Of a DNA stretch of 64,000 bases, positions 1-12,267 are shown piece by piece. This stretch comes from Escherichia phage Eps7. Positions within the stretch are counted from its first letter, which is position 1; each line of letters starts with the position of its first letter. The notes under the pieces were generated by a model. That model saw nothing but the letters and a program-made list of their open reading frames with translations, was not told the DNA's origin and did no database searches. The position numbers were made by a program, and so were the translations under genes. Location of the stretch: sequence record NC_010583.1; one strand, 5' to 3'.

Positions 1-106
1 TGTTATCGTTACACACCGTGACTATTTTATTTTTATTGTTAGGCAACTTTTAATTTGTCGATGAATTGTTGCGGAGTGGTACTATATTCCGCGCGTTCTT
101 CCTCGG

Positions 107-772
107 TCATACCTTCCCAACACATTTTAAACGTTCGGCTAGGAATTGATAATCGTTATCATCATCTAACGATTCATCAATAAAGGTTTCACCGATCAAT
201 GTTACGCCGATTGATAGGATATCGTTAACGGCTTGAGCGTCCAGCGTTTTAAATCCAGCACTTGCCGCCGCTGATAATACACCTTTATGATCATCAATCA
301 TTGTAAAATCAGCGTTCGGGTATAGCTGTTTAAACAGTTCAAAGTAATAAGATTTATATACAGCGTCTTTGCTGTGATATATTTCGCTAACCTTATCCGC
401 TTCAAAGTATTTATGTAATGTATCGCGGGAAAATACGCGAATATTACTATTTCCGCGCCCTCGCAAGCCTTGTTTGCGTAAATAAAAATAATCGCTTTTA
501 GACATTAAGCGCGCGGTACAAATAATATTTAAAGTATTTGCATCATTCATACATTGGCGCATATATTCAACCAATGGCAATAAAGAATCTTGCATAATTA
601 AATCATGTTTGCAGGCTTCGCGGGAATACTTAACTAAATTTAAATTCCCATTATCATCAAAACAAGGCGCTACACGGTGCATTGAATTAATGATTGTCCC
701 GTCTAAATCCCAAATCATAACGCGGGAAATATGCGGAAAAGTGCGGGTAATATTCATGTTAACTTGATTCAT
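107..772 (-). CDS. dmp: HAD-family 5'-deoxyribonucleotidase (Dmp-like pre-early protein)
   Basis: 221-aa ORF with N-terminal HAD motif WDLDGT; first gene of a T5-type pre-early block. Confidence 0.6.
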   Translation of the reverse strand: MNQVNMNITRTFPHISRVMIWDLDGTIINSMHRVAPCFDDNGNLNLVKYSREACKHDLIMQDSLLPLVEYMRQCMNDANTLNIICTARLMSKSDYFYLRKQGLRGRGNSNIRVFSRDTLHKYFEADKVSEIYHSKDAVYKSYYFELFKQLYPNADFTMIDDHKGVLSAAASAGFKTLDAQAVNDILSIGVTLIGETFIDESLDDDNDYQFLAERLKCVGKV

Positions 773-855
773 TTATTTGTTTCTCCTGTTAAGGGTAGTT
801 AGTTCAATCTTGCCAGCTAATTATATTAGATTAGCTGGCAATGTTCAATTAACTG

Positions 856-1248
856 TTAGTTAGTGAGGCCATACGCTAGCGCGTCACCGATAAAGCTAAG
901 ATCTTCACCATGTACGCTAGAGCGAATCCCCGCGCAAGTGTAAACCATCGCGCTAGCTTCTGGATTGCAGACCGGACACGGCTTAACAACTGCAAACGCT
1001 AGACCGGATTTAAGCGCATCAATAATAATTGTTTGCACTGTCAAAGTATCAGCGTAAACGCCTTTTGCTTTCGTATGGCTTGCCACTTTGCCGGTATCAT
1101 AAGCAAAGGTAGTAACCTGCAAAGCGTCGTTATAATTCAGCAAATCAAAATTAACTTGCCCCGCCTCGACGTGATAACGTTCACCATTAGAATAAACTAG
1201 AACGATGGAAGAAGTAGCGCGATCAAAAGGAATGTTTTGGTTTTTCAT
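856..1248 (-). CDS. hypothetical pre-early protein
   Basis: 130-aa ORF in compact same-strand array; CPVC motif; no recognisable domain. Confidence 0.45.
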   Translation of the reverse strand: MKNQNIPFDRATSSIVLVYSNGERYHVEAGQVNFDLLNYNDALQVTTFAYDTGKVASHTKAKGVYADTLTVQTIIIDALKSGLAFAVVKPCPVCNPEASAMVYTCAGIRSSVHGEDLSFIGDALAYGLTN

Positions 1249-1280
1249 GTTTATGACTCCAGATTATTTAATTACGGGAT

Positions 1281-1559
1281 TTATTGAAAAAATACATTTA
1301 AAGATAAATCAGTTTTACGAAAATATGTTTCGTCGCCGTCTTTCCTTTCTTGATTAAGGTAATCGCCTGTCATTACCTGAATAGAATCTTTTCCGAAAAA
1401 GATCATATTTTCGCCAATATTACTATCCCATACGGCATACATTCCCGCGTACATTCCACGGGTAACTAAATAAACGCAACTATCAAAAGACATTTCAGAC
1501 CATGCAATATCTTCTAAACAATTGCTATCAGGGATAGATATATTAATTTTACTAGCCAT
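1281..1559 (-). CDS. hypothetical protein
   Basis: 92-aa ORF in same-strand array. Confidence 0.4.
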   Translation of the reverse strand: MASKINISIPDSNCLEDIAWSEMSFDSCVYLVTRGMYAGMYAVWDSNIGENMIFFGKDSIQVMTGDYLNQERKDGDETYFRKTDLSLNVFFQ

Positions 1560-1611
1560 TTAATAAACCTTTTATTAATGGCGGTATATTTCAACCGCCG
1601 ATTAAATTTAA

Positions 1612-3277
1612 TTATGCAAAGAATTTACCGTTTTTGAAGTCAATCAAAGTACGTTGCCCGTTTGCATAGGTAATTAAATGCGTTTGCGTCCAGCTTGACG
1701 CGCCCACGTTGTAGCCCATATCAAGCGACCCCGCCACGCCAGCGGTATAAACGCCGCCGTAAATGCTAGCCGTATGAGTATGACCAGTGTTAAGGCGTCC
1801 CAACTTTTTAAACTGCTTAGGATTGCCCCGACTGCCGTTAATGCCATTGTGACCATGTACGCCGCATTCAATGCCAGCGATTTTAAACGACTGGTCAGTA
1901 GTCAGGAAAATAGCGTTAAATTCGCAACCTGCGACACTACGCAAGGCGTAATCTAGCACGTTAAAAGTATCATCCTTTTCAGCAATAGCGGCGTATATAG
2001 CAGCGTTTAGACGGTGATACAATTCCGCGTTTGCGGGATCGTCTTTAATGTTAGCGTTACGATCATCTAACCAGCGGGATAAAGCTAAATCATGGTTAGA
2101 TTCAACAATGATTGTTTGAGAAAAATCACGCTCCATTGATTCTAATACGCGTCCAGTGTCGATAAGATCATCTAGAACCTTGTCACGTCCTGCGGCGTAC
2201 TGTTTAGCAAGGAATACACCACTAGCGCGGTTGTGATGGTTACGCGATGTAAAATCATGCACATCATGAATAAACTGATATTTAGGCTTGAGAATATCAA
2301 GCAAGCTGTTTTCACTAGCCCATGAAGCAACGGCGCATTCATCATCTAGTTTTTCGGCGTGAATATCGCCATATTGCAAGCCTAGAACATGATCGGACGT
2401 TTCAAAACATCCGGTGGGCATAGCGCAAACATTCAAATCATAGAACATTCCGCTTTCATCCATTGTTTCAAGCTGGCGGCAATAAAATTCTCCGTCGTCG
2501 TCAAATTCTACCAGCAAAGCACCGTAATTATGCAGCGCCTCGGCTTTTTGACCTGCTTTCTGCTGAATGTAGTTTTTAAGCGTAGCCGTTCCGGTTGAAT
2601 ACATACGGCGCACTACTTCACCTTTTAACGCTGGCACACTTTCAGCGGTAATTTTAGCGTGACCAATTGCCAGACCTTCAATATTAAAGCCGTGGCGGTT
2701 TCTGCGAATCCTGAAAGCGGATAGTCTGCCGTTGGTAACACGTTAATTTCAGCCATGAAAGCAAAACGGCGATTATTTAAAAATACGTTTTTCTCGCAAA
2801 TATATTTATTAAATGCGGGATCGTATTTAATGCCTTCGTTACCTTCTCCATTCTGGAAGCCGTTTTTATTGTAAATGAATTTACTAACCAGCAATTCACC
2901 GCCGATATATTCAGCGAATTTTTCCAGACTTGCTAAAAAGTTTTTATGCGGGAGGAAGTATTATTTTGAATCGACGTTAGAATAAAACGGCGACCGGATT
3001 TAACTTCCCACTGTTCCACGGTACTAGAAACAATCCCCGCCGCTTCTGGGCGATCATCATTTTTAATCGCCTTTTCAGCTTTTGCCGCTTTCGGTTTCGC
3101 TGGCTTGTTTGCTTCCAGCCAATCACAAATCGCGGTGGAATGTTTCGTTGTATCGTAAACAGCTTTTGAAATATCGTCGCAAACTTCTAATTTAGTAGCG
3201 CGCAAACGCTTACCATAGAAATTAAAATCAGCGGCCATTTTCAGAATTTGAGCTTGTTTTTCTGCGGAAATATTCAT
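1612..3277 (-). CDS. A1: A1-like pre-early protein with metallophosphoesterase domain; reading frame interrupted twice
   Basis: three consecutive same-strand ORFs (2933..3277, 2625..2894, 1612..2637) totalling ~545 aa; GVHGH and GHTHT phosphoesterase-like motifs in the C-terminal piece; ORF ends look out of frame. Confidence 0.55.
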
Positions 3278-3386
3278 AACTAATTCAACTCCTATAAAGG
3301 GATAAAGATTAAAGCTGGCAATATTGCCAAATATAACGCCTTGCCTGAAGTGAGGACAATTTAAAAGGCGTTATAATTTGCAACAT

Positions 3387-3611
3387 TTAATTAATCGGCA
3401 TTAAACTAGAACAAAAGCCAAATACAATGCCAATTGTAAGAAAGATAATTGACAGATATTTTTGAATGTTCGCGTTTTTGCGGAAATTATTTGCGGCGTA
3501 AACGTTATTAATTCCAATTATTGCCAGAATTGACCTCGTATAATTCAGAATAAAAGCGGCGGCAATAATAAATAAACCTAAAATAAACGCTTCGCTAGGA
3601 TAAAAGATCAA
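3387..3611 (-). CDS. small membrane protein (two predicted TM helices)
   Basis: 74-aa hydrophobic ORF. Confidence 0.4.
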   Translation of the reverse strand: MIFYPSEAFILGLFIIAAAFILNYTRSILAIIGINNVYAANNFRKNANIQKYLSIIFLTIGIVFGFCSSLMPIN

Positions 3612-3661
3612 GATTATTCTCCTTTAAGGGTTAGCGGGGAATATTCCCCGCTAGTTAAAAT

Positions 3662-4078
3662 TTATTCACCTGCGGCCTGTTTTACTTCCTCCGCTACGCC
3701 TAACAATTGCGCTACAGCTTCCAGCGTTTCAAGTTTAGCACTTTCAAGGCTTGCCAGATCGTCGGCATCTTTTACGATACCTGAATCAATAGCGTGTTTA
3801 GCGATGACGCGCACATAGTGAGCTTTACGGACACTAGACCCGCCGCCAACTTTACGCGGTTTATCGCTTTTCTGATAGGCTTTTGCACTGGTCAATTTAG
3901 AACGTACAGACACCGGACTTGCAGCGCCAACGGCGGCGGCAATTTCTTTCAAGCCGTCACTATTCGCAAACTCAATCCCGCTTTTAGCGACCATTTCAGA
4001 ATACATAGAAACAGCTTTTTCGGTGTTTTCTTCGTTCCAAGAGAATTTTGCGGTTTTTTCGGTTTTAACGTTAGACAT
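3662..4078 (-). CDS. hypothetical pre-early protein (possible A2-like DNA-binding protein)
   Basis: 138-aa ORF, Lys/Ala-rich, directly downstream of A1-like gene region; assignment by position only. Confidence 0.4.
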   Translation of the reverse strand: MSNVKTEKTAKFSWNEENTEKAVSMYSEMVAKSGIEFANSDGLKEIAAAVGAASPVSVRSKLTSAKAYQKSDKPRKVGGGSSVRKAHYVRVIAKHAIDSGIVKDADDLASLESAKLETLEAVAQLLGVAEEVKQAAGE

Positions 4079-4177
4079 AATTTAATACTCCATTCAATTA
4101 TTAATTAAGGGATTATGATTAACTAATGTTAATCCATATATTCCCCATATTTCAGGGGAATATAAAGTTAGCACTAA

Positions 4178-4429
4178 TTAGCTAATAGCTTGCCATTTAT
4201 CATCTTTCTGAATGATCTTTACAACGTCGCCGGATTTAACGCGAACATTATAAATTGGCTTGCCGTGGTTACTGCGTTCCGTTTCCGCATAGACCGCTTC
4301 AATTTTATCGAAAGGATCTAGCGCCGCACCTTTAATACGTTCGGCTTTTCCGGTTAATTCATCCGTTTTAGTAACGAAAGGAATAAATACAGATTGACCT
4401 ACTTTCGGCGCGGTAATAACGTTTTGCAT
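4178..4429 (-). CDS. hypothetical protein
   Basis: 83-aa ORF ending the minus-strand pre-early block. Confidence 0.4.
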   Translation of the reverse strand: MQNVITAPKVGQSVFIPFVTKTDELTGKAERIKGAALDPFDKIEAVYAETERSNHGKPIYNVRVKSGDVVKIIQKDDKWQAIS

Positions 4430-4563
4430 TTTTAATACTCCGGTTTATTGGGGATTATTCCACAATAGCGCCTCGATACTTTGAAACGCTATTAGATTAT
4501 AATCCGCTAGGAGTTAGCCTAAACATTACCGTTTTTCCAAATTGTTAAAGAGCAGTTACTACG

Positions 4564-4872
4564 GGGAACATCTTAAAACCTATCGGCTAGCGTGTCAAGC
4601 GTTTTTTAAACTTTTTTCGATTTGATGTGAGTTATATAAATCAATCATTATATTACGCCACACCATTTCCAGACCTTGCTGCTTACCTTTCTTGTATTGC
4701 TTGAATCTGTATTTTACAGATCGTTGCGCTACTGTCAACAAATTTTTTTGTTCTGCTATCTAATGCGCTAGCAGGTTTCGCACTAATCACTAAAGCGTTT
4801 TTTGATTTGATCATTATCGTCGATTCCTTATAATGTATAAGTTTACCGCCGATAGGCTTTAAGATGTTCCCT
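4564..4872. repeat. 24-bp inverted repeat pair (GGGAACATCTTAAAACCTATCGGC / reverse complement) separated by ~260 bp
   Basis: 4564-4587 and 4849-4872 are reverse complements with one mismatch; lies in 1.5-kb non-coding region. Confidence 0.7.
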
Positions 4873-5520
4873 AGTTTTTAAAGAGCATGGCGGTAAACTT
4901 CCCCGCCGTGTAATCTTGCGTTTCGTTTCCGTCCCGCCGTCCTACGAGATAAATAATAGCAAATTGAGCGAAAGAGACAAGCGTAATTTTGTAAAGAAGT
5001 GTAAAGACAAACGCCACCGCACCACGTCCAGCGGCGCACTAAATTTAATGAAACGGGCGCGCGAATAACACCAAAACAACCATTTTAGCAAGTAATTTTT
5101 TCATTTATATCTGCTCTAGGGTACTTGACAAAATCTAAAATCCTCGTGGTGAGGTTTTCTCGGTGTACCCCTTATGATTGCCTATCTTTTCCTTTGATGC
5201 GCTTAGAATCGCTTACAGAGCGTTTTAGACCCTGTTAATAACTTATACAAAAAGCAAAAAATGAAATTTAATGAGTTATCCACTTGATTTTTCAAAAAAG
5301 TATTTTCTGCTGTTATTTTTCATTGACAAATAAGTTTAGACGTGCATTGATTGGTTAGCAGACTAACAATCGCTAGGATGATAATCACGCTGGTGGATTG
5401 TAACAGCCGAAACAGTTAGCAGACTATTAATAATCTAAAAACCTATTAGCCAACTAACTATTTCATATTATATAATATACTTATAAATTAAAGAGAAATA
5501 ATAACTATAAGAAACTATCG

Positions 5521-5655
5521 GCTAAGTGAGAACCACTATCATTTAGGTTATTCACAAAGTTATCCACAGCACTTTTTGACTTGACACAATAAGCAACATT
5601 TTGGCGACTTATCCACAGACTTATATACAGGTTATCCTACTGTATAAATATACAG
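5521..5655. repeat. left arm of ~135-bp imperfect inverted repeat carrying DnaA-box-like 9-mers and a 7-bp-arm palindrome
   Basis: reverse complement of 9781-9914 aligns with 5521-5655; TTATTCACA, TTATCCACA x2 at 5548-5617; CTGTATAAATATACAG at 5640-5655. Confidence 0.7.
5548..5617 (+). promoter_or_regulatory. cluster of three DnaA-box-like sites (TTATNCACA)
   Basis: TTATTCACA 5548-5556, TTATCCACA 5560-5568 and 5609-5617. Confidence 0.5.
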
Positions 5656-5905
5656 GGTAGAATGGTAGCAGTAACAACCGCAATCAAATTTAAGCGGTCT
5701 AAAACGCGCTACACGGCGTTTTCTCACTGCTGCCCTTATTATAATAAAGCCTTGTGTACGCTTACAGAGAGCTAGAAATAGAAAAACGCGCGGCTATCAT
5801 AAAAACAAGCGTTAGGCAAGGAATAAAAAACCTTTTCTTTTTTCTTGCCCCTAACAAACAAATATCTATATCATTCACTCACCGATTAACGATGGAGACA
5901 AAGAA

Positions 5906-6907
5906 ATGTCTACTGTAAGAATTGCAGTACCAGCAAACGCAACTATTGTTAAAGGTAGTTTGCGCAACCTGCTAGATGGTAGTAGTGCGGCAAGTATTCA
6001 GCACACCGCCGCAATGGTTGAAAAAATTCACGAGGATATTTTAGATAATAATGATACTCATTATTCAGTCGATGATTTCACGCTATTACTAGACCAGACA
6101 AGGGCGCTAGTAATTTTCAACCGTGATTATCACATTTTCCGTAACAGTCGGGGAACTGATATTGATTTTATCATTGTTGGTTATAGTGAATCCAATAATG
6201 GTTACATTGCGCGATTATATAACGTGCAAGAAAAAGAGCAGGTAACAGCAACAAAAGTAAATAATATCCGGCTGGATAGTGTCGGATCGTTATTAAATAG
6301 TATCTGGCGTGAATTATCCTCAAGCTATAAAGGTGCGGATAGTGACGCAATCGAAACAACTGGCGTATTGTGTTTTGAAAAGTCAACGGGTAACATGTTG
6401 ATCCCTAACGATTATTTAGAGTATGGGAATGAATCAAACGTTGCAAATGCTGGATTTACACTTTTACCGCTTGACAATGTAACAAAACAGGCTGTACAAT
6501 CTCAAACTTCAAGCGCAAATGCGCAAACTACTGAAAATAAAGGAAATATTATGTCTAAAGTATCTTCTATCGTTGCCGCTAATAAATCCGCCGTTGTAAA
6601 CGCTGCTAAACTGGAAGCGGGTAAAATTGCACTGACTCAAATCACAAAAGTAGCGGCGAAAAAAGCGCCGTTTATGATTAAAGGTTATATCGATACGCCG
6701 ATTGGTCGTGTAGTGATTGCTAACCTGTTAAGCGTAGCAGTTGACCAGTACGCCCCGACTAATCAGAAAGCGAAAGCGATAGCAGGCGCGGCAATGGAAG
6801 CGGCAATGTTGGAAATGGTACAGAGTTTCAATATTGCTGAAATGATCGATGAAATGGTAAAAGGCATTGACATTTCTACCTTTACCCAAAACACCGAAAC
6901 AGAATAA
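5906..6907 (+). CDS. hypothetical protein
   Basis: 333-aa ORF with GGAGA RBS; first gene of plus-strand cassette. Confidence 0.6.
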   Translation: MSTVRIAVPANATIVKGSLRNLLDGSSAASIQHTAAMVEKIHEDILDNNDTHYSVDDFTLLLDQTRALVIFNRDYHIFRNSRGTDIDFIIVGYSESNNGYIARLYNVQEKEQVTATKVNNIRLDSVGSLLNSIWRELSSSYKGADSDAIETTGVLCFEKSTGNMLIPNDYLEYGNESNVANAGFTLLPLDNVTKQAVQSQTSSANAQTTENKGNIMSKVSSIVAANKSAVVNAAKLEAGKIALTQITKVAAKKAPFMIKGYIDTPIGRVVIANLLSVAVDQYAPTNQKAKAIAGAAMEAAMLEMVQSFNIAEMIDEMVKGIDISTFTQNTETE

Positions 6908-6915
6908 TAATTACT

Positions 6916-6938
6916 AGCGGGGATTATTCCCCGCTTTA
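6916..6938 (+). terminator. hairpin AGCGGGG-N6-CCCCGCT with short T tract
   Basis: stem-loop immediately after stop of 5906..6907. Confidence 0.4.
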
Positions 6939-6973
6939 CTATTTCCCTGTTAATTGTTAGGAGACTAGTTATT

Positions 6974-7282
6974 ATGCAACTAAATCAAATCATGTTAGCG
7001 CAATTAGCCGAAAAAATGCCGAATAGCCCACATGTTAATTATTCGGACAATCAAAGCAATATTCCTATATGGGAAAAGCAAGGCCGTCCCTTTTTATGGG
7101 AACATGTAGAAAGCGCGAATAATTATCATGCTTTCTTTGATCGTGGTTATGGCTGGCTATGTATTTTTGTAGACGAAACTTTGCTGGATTATGGAATGGA
7201 TGAAATAGTCCGTGATGACGTAATTTTCTTAAATAAAGGATTTTACAGTGTAGCAAATTCTCTTTATTTCCCCGCTAATTAA
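6974..7282 (+). CDS. hypothetical protein
   Basis: 102-aa ORF preceded by TAGGAG RBS. Confidence 0.5.
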   Translation: MQLNQIMLAQLAEKMPNSPHVNYSDNQSNIPIWEKQGRPFLWEHVESANNYHAFFDRGYGWLCIFVDETLLDYGMDEIVRDDVIFLNKGFYSVANSLYFPAN

Positions 7283-7295
7283 TAGGAGTCTAGTT

Positions 7296-7790
7296 ATGTC
7301 AGAAGAAAAATATGGCTTTTCTCTAGAAAGTGTGAATGAAGCTGAACACGATATGATCGTTTTAGTTGATTGTCATACTGGCTATTGCGGGGAGGGCTGG
7401 ACGGAGGAACATTTTGTTCCCGCTGGCTGTGATCTGGACGCTTTCGCAAACGAACACGCATATGATAATGCTTCTCGTTTCGGTAGCGATGGGGAAGAAG
7501 ATGAAGAAACAGGGGAATGGATTGAAAATGATAATGTATATGCGAGTCTTTATCATTATCAATTGAGTAAGTCCGGTACTTATGTAAACGGCGGCGATCC
7601 TATTAATACCATTATGAAACTAATTATTAAACACGGTGGCGCGGAAATAATTGGTAACAAGGCGTTATTATACGCAAACCGATTAAAACAGCTTGTTTAT
7701 ATTCCTAATAATTCCCGTTGGGATGAATATGCCGTTTTACAGAAAGAATTAAAACGCTGTTTCAACATTGAAGCATTAGAAATAGTCTGA
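7296..7790 (+). CDS. hypothetical acidic protein
   Basis: 164-aa ORF preceded by TAGGAG RBS. Confidence 0.55.
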   Translation: MSEEKYGFSLESVNEAEHDMIVLVDCHTGYCGEGWTEEHFVPAGCDLDAFANEHAYDNASRFGSDGEEDEETGEWIENDNVYASLYHYQLSKSGTYVNGGDPINTIMKLIIKHGGAEIIGNKALLYANRLKQLVYIPNNSRWDEYAVLQKELKRCFNIEALEIV

Positions 7791-7806
7791 TGTAAAGTTT
7801 TGTAAA

Positions 7807-7833
7807 GGTCGCCTATTATGGCGGCCTTTTTTG
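7807..7833 (+). terminator. rho-independent terminator-like hairpin plus T6
   Basis: GGTCGCC-loop-GGCGGCC followed by TTTTTTG. Confidence 0.55.
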
Positions 7834-7897
7834 TTATAATGCCTTTACACCGAAACGGTGGATTGAAAATTTTCCCTGATTTCTAGGAGGCGTTAAA

Positions 7898-8125
7898 ATG
7901 GTACATTCATCATCTTCTGCAATTTTTAATGGTATGGAATGGGTATCCGTTCCCGCTATTATCAGCGTTATGGTTTCTGAATTTGGGATTGGTAAAACTT
8001 ATATCACCATTCAGGAACTTTATGACAATGACAAGATTGACCAGCAAACGGCGGGCTTTTTGCTGGATGAATTAAAAGCTAACCACTGTACCAAAAAGCA
8101 AGCGGCAAAAATTGTTTTAATGTAA
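7898..8125 (+). CDS. hypothetical protein
   Basis: 75-aa ORF with CTAGGAGG RBS. Confidence 0.45.
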   Translation: MVHSSSSAIFNGMEWVSVPAIISVMVSEFGIGKTYITIQELYDNDKIDQQTAGFLLDELKANHCTKKQAAKIVLM

Positions 8126-8171
8126 TTATTAAAGGGGATATATTATCCCCTAATTTCTAGGAGCTAATAAA

Positions 8172-8321
8172 ATGGTTATTTTTAGATCTATTCTGGCTAG
8201 TATCTTGGGCGCTATTTTATCGCTGTTTGTAATAGCTTTCGGCGTTCACGTGGTTATTATTGGAGCAGGTATCGCGGGGTTTTCTTACTTGTTAGGCTGT
8301 ATGACTGGTAAAGGGGAATAA
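8172..8321 (+). CDS. small membrane peptide (49 aa)
   Basis: ORF below track threshold; CTAGGAGC RBS; hydrophobic. Confidence 0.4.
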   Translation: MVIFRSILASILGAILSLFVIAFGVHVVIIGAGIAGFSYLLGCMTGKGE

Positions 8322-8324
8322 AAA

Positions 8325-8537
8325 ATGTTAAAGAATATTTCCCTTGCCCGTTCTAAAGGTTTTAAGCTGGTGGATGTTAACACGTTTGAGCGTCCAGATT
8401 GTAAAATCGAATATGTAGCACGCAACAAAAACGCTTTCCGTGTTACTGAAAAGAAATTTGACAAGCGCGGAAATTTGGTAGCCGAAACGGTTAAACACTT
8501 TGCCACCTTTTACGCTGCTTTTCGTGGGGTATTATGA
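8325..8537 (+). CDS. hypothetical protein
   Basis: 70-aa ORF. Confidence 0.45.
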   Translation: MLKNISLARSKGFKLVDVNTFERPDCKIEYVARNKNAFRVTEKKFDKRGNLVAETVKHFATFYAAFRGVL

Positions 8538-8658
8538 AAACTTTATTTTCTATTTTGCTCGGTGCTGCTGGTGGCTTTATTGCTACCTACTTAAAGTGAT
8601 CCTGCACTGTTAGGAGTTTATTCGATTTGTTTTGGCTATTTGCTAGGGAGGTTGGCAG

Positions 8659-9003
8659 ATGGTAATTTATGAGGGCAATCGCTTTATTACTAATTGCCGT
8701 CCGGCATTATTAGCAAACTATTTAAATCAGCTTTCACCAGTTTATAAAGGCGTAGTTAATATCTATGAGGGCAAAGCACATTATAAAATTTCTGCCGTTG
8801 TCGCCCGTGAACTAGCGTTTCAATTTTTAACTTTTGGGTCTTGTGACGTTCAGGTTATGGGGGAAGCGTTAATAGCGGAAAATGAAAATGAATTTATTGA
8901 CATTTTCCGCAAAGTATGTACGGAGCGCCTGATTATGAAAGGCGCGTATATTCAATCAACCGCTGAAAGTATTGAAACAGCGTTTCGAAAGGTGGCGCAA
9001 TGA
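8659..9003 (+). CDS. hypothetical protein
   Basis: 114-aa ORF with GGGAGG RBS. Confidence 0.55.
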   Translation: MVIYEGNRFITNCRPALLANYLNQLSPVYKGVVNIYEGKAHYKISAVVARELAFQFLTFGSCDVQVMGEALIAENENEFIDIFRKVCTERLIMKGAYIQSTAESIETAFRKVAQ

Positions 9004-9200
9004 CTAAAGATGAAGCACTAGAAAAAATGAAACAAGGTTTCAAAGTTAGTAATCAATATTTTACTAGCGATGAATTTTTGTACATGAAAGAAAACGGCGT
9101 GATCATGTCAGAAGATGGTTACAATTTTAATGATTGGTTTTTCAATATTCGCAAGGGTGAGGAATGGAAGCTAGACGGTTGGAGCGTCTACCGTGAATAG
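9000..9200 (+). CDS. hypothetical protein
   Basis: 66-aa ORF, ATGA overlap with upstream gene. Confidence 0.5.
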   Translation: MTKDEALEKMKQGFKVSNQYFTSDEFLYMKENGVIMSEDGYNFNDWFFNIRKGEEWKLDGWSVYRE

Positions 9201-9326
9201 CTGGTGGCGTAAAACGCAAAGTCACAAATCTAATAATACCGCTGGGAAACATTCCCAGCGTTTACGATTTGGTAATGGCTTTACAATGATATTGATAATC
9301 ATTCTCATTCTAGGAGCGATGGCGTT

Positions 9327-9422
9327 ATGAGACTATATATTTTCGTGGGTAATATTAAGCCTGCTAATGATCCCAACGGTGGCGACAATATCCGCCGCTA
9401 TTTTCAACAATACATCTATTAA
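9327..9422 (+). CDS. small hypothetical peptide (31 aa)
   Basis: ORF below track threshold preceded by CTAGGAGCG RBS. Confidence 0.3.
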   Translation: MRLYIFVGNIKPANDPNGGDNIRRYFQQYIY

Positions 9423-9437
9423 TAACGGGGCGTTACT

Positions 9438-9632
9438 ATGAGTGATAAAATTGTTATTAGTAAAACTAGTGTTACCGTGGATACATTCTATGTAGAAGAT
9501 ACAAAAGAAAACCGCGCAATTTGTGAGAATCAAGAGTATGACAAACTTATATATGATGAGTATGGTTACTACACTAATCTAGTAGATTCCTACGGTGAAA
9601 GCGTAGAGTTCTCCCATCAAATACCGGACTAA
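9438..9632 (+). CDS. hypothetical protein
   Basis: 64-aa ORF; last gene of plus-strand cassette. Confidence 0.5.
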   Translation: MSDKIVISKTSVTVDTFYVEDTKENRAICENQEYDKLIYDEYGYYTNLVDSYGESVEFSHQIPD

Positions 9633-9638
9633 TAATAA

Positions 9639-9668
9639 CGGGGCGCAACTATCGGCCCCGCCTTTTCT
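9639..9668 (+). terminator. GC-rich hairpin followed by T-rich tract
   Basis: CGGGGC-loop-GCCCCG then CCTTTTCT after last cassette gene. Confidence 0.5.
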
Positions 9669-9780
9669 GGCCTTCCTCAAATTTCCCATTATTAAAATAC
9701 CTCCTCCAAAAATAAACGCGTTAGGATGCGTTACAGAGCGTTTTAGAGCTATATTAGAGTTATTCACCACGCAGGAATAC

Positions 9781-9914
9781 TGTATAAATATACAGTAGAA
9801 TAACCTGTTGATAAGTCTGTTGATAACGCCTCAAAATCACTAGGATTTTGTCAAGTCAAATCGTGCTGTTAATAAACCTGTGGATAACTTAAATAACAGT
9901 GTTTCTCACTTCGC
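9781..9914. repeat. right arm of ~135-bp imperfect inverted repeat (DnaA-box-like sites, palindrome)
   Basis: CTGTATAAATATACAG 9781-9796; TGTTGATAA x2 (9807-9827) and TGTGGATAA 9879-9887; reverse complement matches 5521-5655. Confidence 0.7.
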
Positions 9915-10100
9915 TTTCTAAATGCGACTCATTCTCATTATGCGACTCATTCGTACTCAACTCTGTAAAGGATAACCATTCTCATTCCGCTTTCTAAGTG
10001 TGAATCATTATCATTCGCATTCAACTTCTCAAATGCGAATCAATCTCATTATCATTCGCATTTCGGCAGGCAGGGCATTTTCATTTTGCCCTGCGCTTTT

Positions 10101-10698
10101 GTGCAAATCCGACATTTGCCCCCACGGATTACGTGCCAGCGTGCATGTGCGAATCCGACAATTTTGTGTGTGAAACCGATGGGAAATATTTTTTATATGT
10201 GCGAATCCGACAATGAATTTTCCTAAAAACTCCAGCAATCAGCAACTGCGATGCAATCCAGCTGGATTCACTAGAGTATGTGCAAATCCGACATGAGTTT
10301 ATTTGTGCAAAACCGACAAGATTTTTGTGACTTCGATGAGAGGGTGTGTGATTGTGTGGGTTTGGGGAGAAGTGCGAATCCGACGAGGTTTTTGGGAGGA
10401 ACTATGGAGGGTGCAGCTGTAGTGGTGCTTCAGCACCGGTTTGCTGCGTTTTTGGGGATAATGTGGGATGTTTTGGCTAGAATTGAGATTAGTGGAGATA
10501 AAGCGAAATTTTTATTAGCAAAATGGGGCAAAATCGCTTGACAAGTGAAAATTCCTGTGGCTCCAAAAACTCAGGCAATCAAGGGCCTTCGGCCCGAAAT
10601 AATGCTGCTATTTTCAGGAGAGTATGTGTTCATGAAAACTTAGGCAATTGTGCAAATCCGACCATAAATTTCTAGAAACACAATGTGCAAATCCGACA
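10101..10698. repeat. dispersed array of about 8 copies of 14-bp motif GTGC(A/G)AATCCGACA
   Basis: copies at 10101, 10147, 10199, 10280, 10305 (variant), 10372 (variant), 10650, 10685; irregular spacing; non-coding. Confidence 0.75.
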
Positions 10699-10741
10699 GT
10701 AATTTCCAGAAATGTGTTTTCAAAAAAATGTTGTCTAGAAA

Positions 10742-10814
10742 TAACCGCCCTCCCTATAACCGCCCTGTATAGGAAACCGCCCTAGGATATCTATAGTAGG
10801 TGAGAAACTGCCCT
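10742..10814. repeat. short direct repeats AACCGCCCT x3 plus AACTGCCCT
   Basis: 10742-10750, 10758-10766, 10775-10783, 10806-10814. Confidence 0.6.
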
Positions 10815-11232
10815 AGAATGCGTGAGAAACAGATTTAAAGTTTGATGTAAACTCTAGAGTTAGTGCTCAACTATTCCTAGAAACTTAGGAGTCTAGAGGA
10901 AAGTGTTGTGCCATCCTAGCAGATGAGCGGCAACAGGTGTATCATCTTGAACATAAATATTGCCTTTAAATATTTATAAGGTAAATAAAAGTAAATATAC
11001 CCCCATTTCATGAGAGTTAGCCCCTCTAGGCGCGTGCGATTTGATACATCCTCCTGAGTCTCGGGGAGGAAGAACAATTGACGAGAACCTGCAAGCAGAA
11101 CCGTCATCAAGTGTTTTCCTACGAGGAATGATGTAAATCTACGGCCTAGAGGTAAAAACAAGTTGATGTTTTTAATCTATGAGATTATTATAACATGCAG
11201 CTCAAATAATGTCAAGAAGATTTTATTAACAT

Positions 11233-12267
11233 TTATACATCGTGATTGACTTTGAGTATGACTCCCTTCGATGCCATGAAAAGGAATGTTGCTAAGTAAG
11301 ATGACTCGGAGTTTAGCGCAGAATAATCTACACTTCCTCTAGGTCTAGTTTCTTGTTTAGTGTCAAGAATTGTTGATATATCAAACTTAACAAAGTTAGC
11401 AATCTTTCTAGCTTGCTCGGGATCACGTAAGAGTTCATAATGCGCTGCATTTAGAATATTAGTGGATTCAATTACATCATCATTAATTATACTTAGATGA
11501 ACCTGCGCAAGTATCGAGACAATCCCTAGCTTTAACTCAGATACAGAAGAATAAGGTGGTTCTACTTTCTTTGTAAGTCTAGGAAGATGATCATATTTAC
11601 ATTGTTTTTGTGGAATCATCAGAATGTTGGGATAACATTCTAAACATGACTTTGCATTTCCTTCTTTAAAATGTGGGAGTTCTTTATCAGCAAAGACATG
11701 GAATGAATCTGCTGAGAATCCTTTAATAGTAGGGTCAACAGTTTGAATCAGACGACGTAGACTAATGTATGAAGGAGCTAATGTAACTTCTTCTGCATCT
11801 TTATTATACTTGGGCTGTCCACTAGCATTAATATATGCAGGATAAAACTCTGCACAAAATGCTATTGCATGTGCCTCTAACTCATTAAGCTGAGAAACAC
11901 ATTTTCCATTACAAGCTCTAGCTAATTTAATAATCTCTGCTAAATTCTTTTTTTATACTCATATATAATCATCCGGTCTGGGTTTAAGTTCTGTTATTGA
12001 TTTTGCTGAGGGCTCTAACTTAATCCATGTAAATCCTAGCTGTTCTGATAGGTGAGAGATATTTCTAGGTGTTATCTTTATATCTGGAGGTAATTTAAAT
12101 ACTAGGTCTTTAAGTAACTTCATATCATCTGAACCAATGAAGAGAATATACTGCATTTCATCTCTTAGTTCATATTCAGATTCACTCAGGGAGCTAACAC
12201 CAGCAGTAAATTTATTGAGTTGGGCCACTTTGCAGCGACCCACGGTAAACTGAGTAATTATATCCAT
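11233..12267 (-). CDS. hypothetical protein(s); coding continuous 11233-11952 but no canonical start, upstream ORF 11959..12267 ends 6 nt before an A7 run
   Basis: ORFs 11233..11619 and 11959..12267 with an open stop-free frame between them; possible indel at homopolymer 11946-11952. Confidence 0.4.

What the first reader, a model, noticed from the sequence alone, without database searches (positions are those of the whole stretch)
4430..5905. 1.5-kb non-coding region resembling the T5 injection-stop region
A long ORF-free interval separates the minus-strand pre-early genes from the plus-strand cassette. It contains a 24-bp inverted repeat pair (4564-4587 / 4849-4872), direct repeats TTAGCAGACTA (5355 and 5415) and several DnaA-box-like sites. 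In T5 the first-step-transfer stop lies in a repeat- and palindrome-rich non-coding part of the terminal repeat; this region has that character and position.
Basis: partly seen in the sequence, partly recalled or inferred. Interest (0 to 1): 0.55.

Follow-up and report, generated by a model that had tools for sequence, protein, structure and literature searches.

The report
T5-type pre-early control region, not injection stop
This interval is the already-described central control region of a T5-like phage's terminal repeat (strong early promoters, a small cell-division-inhibitor gene and conserved repeats); it is not the place where DNA injection pauses, which lies about 4 kb further right, although it carries an inverted copy of that signal's core.

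Summary
The window is the left end of a T5-like Salmonella phage (Epseptimavirus-type; 97% identical relatives). The reported repeats are real. The 24-bp inverted repeat lies at 4564-4587 / 4848-4871. GTTAGCAGACTA occurs at 5354 and 5415, with a third diverged copy. Four to five DnaA boxes are present.

The interval is not ORF-free. Between the inverted-repeat arms lies the homologue of T5 hdi (T5.008, an FtsZ inhibitor, Pfam DUF7416). It is intact in 23 relatives and split here by one extra base in a homopolymer.

Alignment with T5 places 4561-5178 and 5416-5665 on T5 4681-5259 and 6019-6237. These are Davison's Repeat Regions 1 and 2, which hold promoters P_H22 and P_D/E20. They are not the annotated injection-stop signal (T5 9140-10149), whose homologue is window ~9640-10960.

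What is true is that 5524-5655 is an inverted paralogue (77%) of the iss core at 9780-9914, with paired DnaA boxes. This is already published, and Davison has speculated that it is a second anchoring site.

One side observation may be new. Near-consensus LexA boxes flank the DnaA boxes in both copies and are conserved across genera.

Verdict: a known feature that was misassigned. Low interest.

The parts
4464..4493 (-). Stem-loop (AATAGCG / CGCTATT, 16-nt loop) in the 5' leader of the leftward 007-A2-A1-dmp operon.
   Evidence: Read directly from the sequence. T5-type relatives have a different hairpin (TTACCTGC...GCAGGTAA) at the same aligned place.
4564..4587 (.). IRA, the left arm of the 24-bp inverted repeat. 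It contains the -10 element and start region of the leftward promoter.
   Evidence: Present in all 24 aligned genomes; mean column identity is 0.92.
4570..4598 (-). Leftward sigma-70 promoter, TTGACA-17-TAAGAT. I read it as the homologue of T5 P_D/E20. Its -35 element overlaps the hdi stop codon.
   Evidence: The promoter scan scores it 10/12. The hexamers are conserved in the relatives. A preprint states that P_D/E20 partly overlaps hdi. Promoter activity was not tested here.
4595..4814 (-). hdi (T5.008, FtsZ-targeting host division inhibitor) homologue. In this sequence it is frameshifted by one extra T in the run at 4743-4749.
   Evidence: The function comes from PMC10714956.
4711..4738 (-). 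Leftward promoter TTGACA-16-TAAAAT inside hdi, the homologue of T5 P_H22.
   Evidence: The scan scores it 11/12. It aligns to the T5 feature 'promoter P-H 22' at 4799-4873.
4848..4871 (.). IRA', the right arm of the 24-bp inverted repeat. It is itself enclosed by a perfect 12-bp inverted repeat (4839-4850 / 4889-4900).
   Evidence: I1, I11. This is the best-conserved block of the interval, at 0.97.
4873..5149 (.). The rest of 'Repeat Region 1': invariant non-coding blocks. They include a possible leftward promoter, TTGTCA (5131-5126) -16- TATAAA (5109-5104).
   Evidence: The alignment of 24 genomes. The interval is collinear with T5 4681-5259. The promoter is inferred from sequence only.
5211..5231 (.). 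IRB-type element TTACAGAGCGTTTTAGACC. It is repeated inverted at 5696-5710 and direct at 9733-9750.
   Evidence: (I6) and direct reading.
5285..5350 (.). Poorly conserved junction. T5 and several relatives carry the HNH endonuclease gene hegG inserted here; the window has no insert.
   Evidence: and 48/51. [quoted passage not shown]
5354..5461 (+). Three direct repeats of GTTAGCAGACTAAnAAT (5354, 5415, 5445), followed by an AT-rich stretch with GC 0.285.
   Evidence: T5 has two copies.
5524..5655 (.). IRC-spacer-IRD ('Repeat Region 2'), an inverted paralogue of the iss core. Its DnaA-box pairs are 5548/5560 (3-bp gap) and 5609/5621.
   Evidence: Described in 10.1101/866236.
5638..5657 (.). LexA (SOS) box-like palindrome TACTGTATAAATATACAGGG, which overlaps a DnaA-like box.
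   Evidence: Binding by LexA was not tested.
5845..5874 (+). Rightward promoter TTGCCC-18-TATCAT upstream of the 011 homologue.
   Evidence: It aligns with the T5 promoter feature at 6411-6489.
9640..10960 (.). The true positional homologue of the T5 injection-stop region ('Repeat Region 3'). It contains the core IRD'-spacer-IRC' (9780-9914), a LexA-like box (9778-9797), four 37-nt repeats, and eight GTGCRAATCCGAC repeats.

Best explanation
The interval is the central control region of the first-step-transfer (terminal-repeat) DNA of a T5-like phage. It is the fused equivalent of T5 'Repeat Regions 1 and 2'.

Its main job is transcriptional. When the terminal repeat enters the cell, host sigma-70 RNA polymerase fires leftward and rightward from here.
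- The leftward promoters are the homologues of P_H22 (inside hdi) and P_D/E20 (-35 on the hdi stop codon, -10 inside IRA). They drive 007, A2, A1 and dmp.
- The rightward promoter is at 5845-5874. It drives the 011 cassette.

Between the 24-bp arms IRA and IRA' sits the small gene hdi, whose T5 product blocks FtsZ ring formation. In this sequence it is broken by a one-base homopolymer indel, most likely a sequencing error.

The right part (5524-5655) is an inverted, independently evolving paralogue of the injection-stop core. It has two pairs of DnaA boxes and a LexA-like palindrome, and probably binds the same host or phage proteins as the core.

The injection stop itself is at about 9.64-10.96 kb.

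Shown here: homology, anatomy and conservation. Taken from the T5 literature: promoter activity, Hdi function and the position of the stop. Inferred: protein binding at the DnaA/LexA module.
For: - Collinear blastn with T5: window 4561-5178 = T5 4681-5259; 5416-5665 = 6019-6237; 9679-10958 = 9310-10615.
- The T5 record annotates P-D/E20, P-H22, T5.008, hegG and a promoter before T5.011 in 4338-6489, and the iss at 9140-10149.
- The flanking genes are the 007 and 011 families (DUF7177, DUF7566). The internal ORF is DUF7416 = T5.008.
- Hdi function is described in PMC10714956. Three experimentally characterised promoters, two of them overlapping hdi, are described in bioRxiv 10.64898/2026.04.02.716235.
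- Twenty-three relatives keep hdi intact, with synonymous-type variation and conserved promoter hexamers.
- The non-coding blocks are as conserved as the flanking genes.
- Both copies of the 132-bp module are present in all 38 loci that carry the region.
- Davison's description matches the anatomy: Repeat Regions 1-3, eight DnaA boxes in pairs 3 bp apart.
Against: - No transcription or binding data exist for this phage. Promoter assignments rest on hexamer conservation and on homology to T5.
- The T5 GenBank feature for P-D/E20 (4338-4664) does not literally include the TTGACA-17-TAAGAT site that I assign to it. The assignment follows the 2026 preprint's statement that the promoter partly overlaps hdi.
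- The high conservation of many non-coding blocks (4873-5149, 5660-5710) is not explained by promoters alone.
Confidence: 0.85

Rival explanations
1. One reading: this interval is the injection-stop (first-step-transfer stop) region of the phage.
For: It is rich in repeats and palindromes, lies in the terminal repeat, and has DnaA boxes. It contains a 132-bp copy of the iss core.
Against: - It is the positional homologue of T5 4.7-6.2 kb, not of 9.1-10.1 kb.
- It lies at 42-56% of the repeat, whereas the T5 FST end is at 7.9% of the genome, about 9.6 kb.
- It lacks the tandem direct-repeat families that mark the real region: 72 exact 10-mer direct pairs at 9640-10960 against 13 here.
- If injection stopped here, the rightward pre-early cassette (011-017) would stay outside the cell.
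- Davison explicitly excludes Repeat Regions 1 and 2 as the iss on positional grounds.
Confidence: 0.03
2. Auxiliary anchor (Davison's hypothesis). IRC-spacer-IRD (5524-5655) works together with the iss core, about 4.1 kb away. Both bind membrane-associated DnaA and form a second attachment point or a loop that helps to hold the FST DNA. This adds to the best explanation rather than excluding it.
For: - The module is retained, inverted, in all 38 loci examined, although the distance between the copies varies from about 1.85 to 4.15 kb.
- The DnaA-box pairs have a fixed geometry.
- A minor FST band near 5.85 kb was reported by Rhoades in 1979, as cited by Davison.
Against: - No experimental study of these sites exists (PMC10644984).
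- The central copy is less constrained than the iss copy (orthologue identity 85% against 93%), and there is no co-evolution between the two copies of one genome (73.6% within genomes, 73.2% between).
- Davison notes that some T5-like phages lack IRC/IRD entirely.
- The T5 mutant deleted from hegG to 017 is viable, with small plaques. If that deletion is contiguous, it removes this module.
Confidence: 0.2
3. A DnaA-dependent replication origin: a cluster of DnaA boxes next to an AT-rich stretch.
For: Four DnaA boxes lie at 5548-5629, next to an AT-rich segment at 5400-5599 with GC 0.285.
Against: - There are no oriC-type 13-mers. GATCTnTTnTTTT-like sites are not enriched and none lies in 5400-5600.
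- The same module occurs inverted at the iss.
Confidence: 0.04
4. IRA/IRA' are the ends of a small mobile or exchangeable gene cassette (a 'moron' slot) rather than regulatory sites.
For: The arms are kept while the content changes. Locus L036 has an unrelated 56-aa ORF instead of hdi, and L012 and L032 have an extra ORF between IRA' and hdi. Both arms share lineage-specific changes, such as A at position 4 in the window clade and an inserted A in both arms of L012.
Against: IRA coincides with the -10 and start region of a strong promoter, which by itself explains its conservation. No transposase or recombinase is associated with it. A distant relative (L039) has an hdi homologue without recognisable arms.
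Confidence: 0.1

Closest known systems
T5 left-terminal-repeat 'Repeat Region 1' and 'Repeat Region 2' (Wang et al. 2005 nomenclature; Davison 2015 and bioRxiv 10.1101/866236)
   Same: The sequence is collinear with T5. IRA/IRA' bracket hdi. IRC-spacer-IRD carries paired DnaA boxes 3 bp apart. The interval lies between the 007 and 011 homologues.
   Different: The two regions are fused here because the hegG HNH endonuclease insert of T5 is absent. Identity to T5 is about 64-74%. There are three copies of the GTTAGCAGACTA repeat instead of two. hdi is frameshifted in this sequence.
T5 injection stop signal (iss; 'Repeat Region 3', NC_005859 9140-10149; Heusterspreute et al. 1987)
   Same: Both are repeat- and palindrome-rich non-coding DNA in the terminal repeat. 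They share a 132-bp module with DnaA boxes and a LexA-like palindrome, at 77-79% identity and in inverted orientation.
   Different: The position differs: the centre of the repeat rather than its right end. There are no DRE or DRD tandem repeat families and no collinear homology. The window has its own true iss homologue at 9640-10960.
T5 pre-early promoters P_H22 and P_D/E20 (strong sigma-70 promoters of the Bujard collection) and the gene 011 promoter
   Same: The hexamers and spacing are conserved at the aligned positions.
   Different: Promoter activity has not been measured for this phage.
Hdi / T5.008 (Pfam DUF7416, PHROG 4718), an FtsZ-targeting division inhibitor
   Same: The two window fragments cover profile positions 1-24 and 22-69. 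Close relatives encode an intact 72-aa protein.
   Different: The reading frame is interrupted here by a one-base homopolymer indel. The Epseptimavirus-type protein has a different C-terminal tail (…YNSHQIEKSLKNA).

Membership tests
T5 injection stop signal region (Repeat Region 3) | Lies at the right end of the terminal repeat, at about 7.9% of the genome, spanning the junction between repeat and unique DNA | tested here: not met
   The finding lies at about 42-56% of a repeat that ends near window 10563. The T5 iss is annotated at 9140-10149 of a 10,219-bp repeat.
T5 injection stop signal region (Repeat Region 3) | Collinear sequence homology to T5 9140-10409 | tested here: not met
   Only an inverted 132-bp match exists (5524-5655 against T5 9542-9411). 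The collinear match to the iss is window 9679-10958.
T5 injection stop signal region (Repeat Region 3) | DRE (about 66 bp) and multiple DRD direct repeats next to the core | tested here: not met
   These repeats are absent from 4430-5905. They are present at 9903-10050 and 10099-10705.
T5 injection stop signal region (Repeat Region 3) | Core module with paired DnaA boxes (IRD'-spacer-IRC') | tested here: met
   It is present as the inverted paralogue IRC-spacer-IRD, with boxes at 5548, 5560, 5609 and 5621.
T5 injection stop signal region (Repeat Region 3) | Physical end of the first-step-transfer DNA in sheared infected cells | not testable with these tools
   This needs a blender or shear experiment with end mapping.
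T5 LTR Repeat Regions 1+2 / pre-early divergent control region | Collinear homology to T5 4681-5259 and 6019-6237, between the 007 and 011 homologues | tested here: met
   The flanking genes are DUF7177 and DUF7566.
T5 LTR Repeat Regions 1+2 / pre-early divergent control region | IRA/IRA' inverted repeat | tested here: met
   The repeat is 24 nt with 23/24 complementary positions, and is conserved in all 24 aligned genomes.
T5 LTR Repeat Regions 1+2 / pre-early divergent control region | Promoters P_H22 and P_D/E20 and the 011 promoter | tested here: inconclusive
   The hexamers are present and conserved at the aligned positions. Promoter activity cannot be tested here.
Hdi / DUF7416 | Match to Pfam PF24188 above the gathering score over the full length | tested here: inconclusive
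   The C-terminal fragment scores 95.6 bits (cut-off 27). The N-terminal fragment scores 23.2 bits, below the cut-off. No single intact ORF exists in the window. The 93.6%-identical relative L004 scores 131 bits over the full length.
oriC-type DnaA-dependent origin | DnaA-box cluster plus AT-rich 13-mer unwinding element | tested here: not met
   The boxes are present, but there are no 13-mer repeats.
LexA (SOS) operator | CTGT-N8-ACAG palindrome with an AT-rich centre, close to TACTG(TA)5CAGTA | tested here: met
   5638-5657 has 3 mismatches and 9778-9797 has 1 mismatch. None of 100 shuffles gave any site with up to 3 mismatches. This tests the sequence only.
LexA (SOS) operator | Binding by LexA, with derepression or altered behaviour on SOS induction | not testable with these tools
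   This needs EMSA, footprinting or ChIP, and lexA mutant hosts.

The most novel reading that the evidence does not exclude
The conserved core shared by the injection-stop signal and its inverted copy in this interval is a composite host-protein landing pad. A near-consensus LexA operator (TACTGTATAWWTATACAGTA) directly abuts, and partly overlaps, paired DnaA boxes. If so, host LexA as well as DnaA would bind the incoming first-step DNA at 5638-5657 and 9778-9797. That would link the pause or resumption of T5-type DNA transfer, or pre-early transcription, to the host SOS state.

The box is invariant at its LexA-critical positions in Tequintavirus, Epseptimavirus, Sugarlandvirus and an Erwinia phage, while its AT centre flips.

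I found no mention of LexA or SOS in Davison's analysis. Four full-text searches returned no paper whose title or abstract connects T5 terminal repeats with LexA. The older subscription papers (Heusterspreute 1987, Wang 2005, Davison 2015) could not be read.
Probability: 0.25. Interest if true: 0.6.

Novelty: already known. Interest (0 to 1): 0.15.

Why it matters
As filed, the finding adds nothing new. The region, its repeats, its DnaA boxes, its promoters and its small gene are all described for T5 and its relatives, and the injection stop lies elsewhere.

The check still has three practical uses:
- It corrects the coordinates of the real iss homologue to 9640-10960.
- It shows that the 'non-coding' call came from a frameshifted hdi gene in a sequence that also has a frameshifted essential A1 gene. 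The sequence should therefore be treated as error-prone at homopolymers.
- It yields one cheap, testable lead on a question open for some 60 years, namely what stops T5 DNA transfer: conserved LexA-type operators sit next to the DnaA boxes in both copies of the iss core.

Tried and rejected
- **Rfam scan** of 3500-7000 at E<=1: only a chance-level hit (Ysr197, 16 bits against a gathering score of 167).
- **Structured RNA** at 5660-5735 (outer stem GGTAGCAGT/ACTGCTGCC): the stem is not kept in L004 or in T5-type relatives. Only the IRB' block is conserved. Dropped.
- **Concerted evolution or gene conversion** between IRC-spacer-IRD and the iss core: rejected. Within-genome identity is 73.6% and between-genome paralogue identity is 73.2%.
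- **Inversion of the 4.1-kb segment** between the inverted copies: the 011 homologue keeps the same orientation relative to 007 in every locus where it was found full-length. The only reversed match is a partial one (residues 236-321) in the most distant relative (L039/L040).
- **oriC-like unwinding 13-mers**: none.
- **IRA' as a rightward promoter** mirroring IRA: there is no acceptable -35 element at the right spacing (reading).
- **Davison 2015** (PMC4743489 / DOI) could not be retrieved.
- **Exact end-points of the T5 hegG-017 deletion** are not given in the main text.

Full report
**What the window is.** The 1476-bp interval has full-length matches at 95-97% identity in many Salmonella T5-like phages (EH3, S126, BSP22A and others). 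It has weaker matches in 505 phage records in all. Window positions 1-12000 are collinear with the left terminal repeat of T5: dmp, A1, A2, 007, then a rightward cassette. By homology to phage SIY1lw (Epseptimavirus), whose 10,101-bp terminal repeat is annotated, the window starts about 70 bp inside the repeat. The repeat ends near window 10563.

**The observation.**
- The 24-nt inverted repeat is real: 4564-4587 / 4848-4871, 23 of 24 positions complementary.
- GTTAGCAGACTA is repeated at 5354 and 5415, with a third degenerate copy at 5445.
- Perfect DnaA boxes TTATCCACA lie at 5560 and 5609. One-mismatch boxes lie at 5276 and 5548. Only four perfect boxes occur in the whole 64 kb.
- Compared with dinucleotide shuffles, the interval has about four times the expected exact 10-mer direct pairs and about three times the inverted pairs. 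Two coding controls show no excess.
- So the repeats are more than chance. They are also conserved. In an alignment with 23 relatives (64-94% identical), the arms of the inverted repeat, the block at 4688-4747, the block at 5048-5137 and the DnaA-box blocks are as conserved as, or better conserved than, the neighbouring genes.

**The interval is not ORF-free.**
- On the minus strand between the two arms, every one of the 23 relatives has a single 66-72-aa ORF with codon-third-position-type variation.
- That ORF belongs to Pfam DUF7416 / PHROG 4718 and corresponds to T5.008.
- T5.008 is Hdi, shown experimentally to inhibit host cell division through FtsZ (PMC10714956).
- In the window the gene is split into ORFs 4683-4814 and 4595-4741. 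Both halves match DUF7416, at profile positions 1-24 and 22-69.
- The cause is a T7 run at 4743-4749, where the relatives have T6.
- The essential gene A1 is also broken into three frames here, by indels at 2683 and 2954. I therefore read these frameshifts as sequence errors rather than biology.

**Positional test against T5.**
- blastn gives window 4561-5178 = T5 4681-5259, and window 5416-5665 = T5 6019-6237.
- It gives window 9679-10958 = T5 9310-10615.
- It also gives an inverted match, window 5524-5655 = T5 9542-9411.
- The T5 RefSeq record annotates promoters P-D/E20 and P-H22, T5.008, T5.009, hegG and a promoter before T5.011 within 4338-6489. It annotates the 'injection stop signal (iss)' at 9140-10149.
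- Davison's comparative study names the same pieces. Repeat Region 1 holds IRA, IRA' and IRB. Repeat Region 2 holds IRC-spacer-IRD and IRB'. Repeat Region 3 is the iss region. Regions 1 and 2 were one region before the hegG insertion in T5, and both are too far left to be the iss.
- The window has no hegG insert, so the two regions are fused.
- The real homologue of the stop region is window ~9640-10960. It carries the hallmark families: eight GTGCRAATCCGAC repeats, four 37-nt repeats, and 72 exact 10-mer direct pairs against 1.4 expected.

**What survives of the interpretation.**
- 5524-5655 is an inverted paralogue of the iss core at 9780-9914, 77% identical.
- Its DnaA boxes are in the published arrangement, in pairs separated by 3 bp: 5548/5560 and 5609/5621 here, 9806/9818 and 9867/9879 in the core.
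- Both copies are present in all 38 loci that span the region, at distances from about 1.85 to 4.15 kb.
- The two copies of one genome are no more alike than copies from different genomes (73.6% against 73.2%). Orthologues are 85% identical for the central copy and 93% for the iss copy. So each copy is kept by selection rather than by gene conversion, and the central copy is the less constrained.
- Davison proposes that both copies bind membrane-associated DnaA, and cites a minor FST band near 5.85 kb.
- Others note that no experiment has tested these sites (PMC10644984).
- A T5 mutant deleted from hegG to 017 is viable with small plaques. If that deletion is contiguous, the central copy is dispensable. 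The exact end-points were not available to me.

**How the interval most likely works.**
- It is the divergent pre-early promoter region.
- TTGACA-16-TAAAAT (4738-4711, minus strand) aligns with T5 P_H22, inside hdi.
- TTGACA-17-TAAGAT (4598-4570, minus strand) has its -35 element on the hdi stop codon and its -10 element inside IRA. This fits the statement that P_D/E20 partly overlaps hdi.
- TTGCCC-18-TATCAT (5845-5874, plus strand) precedes the 011 homologue.
- IRA is thus largely explained as the core of a strong promoter. IRA' is an inverted copy upstream of hdi, without a usable -35 element.
- The arms also mark a variable gene slot. One relative has an unrelated 56-aa ORF instead of hdi, and two have an extra ORF, with the arms retained in each case.
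- Promoter activity and protein binding are inferred, not shown.

**Side observation.**
- The outer end of the shared module is a near-consensus LexA operator. It reads TACTGTATAAATATACAGGG at 5638-5657 and TACTGTATAAATATACAGTA at 9778-9797.
- These are the only CTGT-N8-ACAG sites in the 64 kb. No shuffle produced any match with up to 3 mismatches.
- CTG...CAG is kept in 24 of 28 central copies and 28 of 28 iss copies, while the AT centre flips between AAAT and ATTT.
- The box is invariant apart from that centre in T5, Klebsiella phage IME260 (Sugarlandvirus) and Erwinia phage KEY.
- Davison's text never mentions LexA or SOS. Four full-text searches returned no paper whose title or abstract connects T5-type terminal repeats with LexA.
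- I could not read the 1987, 2005 and 2015 papers, so priority is uncertain.

**Verdict.** The feature is already known. Interest is low, apart from the LexA-box lead.

Noticed in passing
window 5638-5657 and 9778-9797: Near-consensus LexA (SOS) boxes lie next to, and overlap, the DnaA boxes in both the central copy and the iss core. They are conserved across T5-like genera, including Sugarlandvirus and an Erwinia phage. They are not mentioned in the literature I could search.
   Followed up: partly
window 1612-3277 (minus strand), indels at 2683 and 2954: The essential pre-early gene A1 is split into three reading frames (-2, -1, -3) relative to the intact 554-aa A1 of phage SIY1lw. The cause is a missing T and a 2-nt insertion. 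This suggests indel errors in this sequence.
   Followed up: partly
window 4743-4749: A T7 homopolymer (T6 in all 23 relatives) frameshifts the hdi homologue. This is why the interval looked ORF-free.
   Followed up: yes
window 9640-10960: This is the true homologue of the T5 injection-stop region. It holds the core IRD'-spacer-IRC' at 9780-9914, four 37-nt repeats at 9903-10050, and eight GTGCRAATCCGAC repeats at 10099-10705. The terminal repeat ends near 10563.
   Followed up: yes
L036 8430-8730; L012 and L032 (alignment): The slot between IRA' and IRA is variable. L036 carries an unrelated 56-aa ORF instead of hdi. L012 and L032 carry an additional small ORF upstream of hdi. The arms, the ribosome-binding context and the downstream -35 element are kept in all three.
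   Followed up: partly
window 5285-5350: This is the insertion site of the HNH homing-endonuclease gene hegG in T5 and several relatives (L005, L014, L016, L034). It is empty in the window and in about half of the relatives.
   Followed up: partly
window 4464-4493: A hairpin lies in the leader of the leftward operon. T5-type phages have a hairpin of different sequence (TTACCTGC/GCAGGTAA) at the same aligned position, which suggests a conserved RNA or DNA structure.
   Followed up: no
window 5276-5284; L009, L021 and L032 in the alignment: Where the window has a single TTATCCACT box, several relatives have an inverted pair of DnaA boxes (TTATCCACTTGAC...CCAGTGGATAA). This would be a ninth and tenth box beyond Davison's eight.
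   Followed up: no
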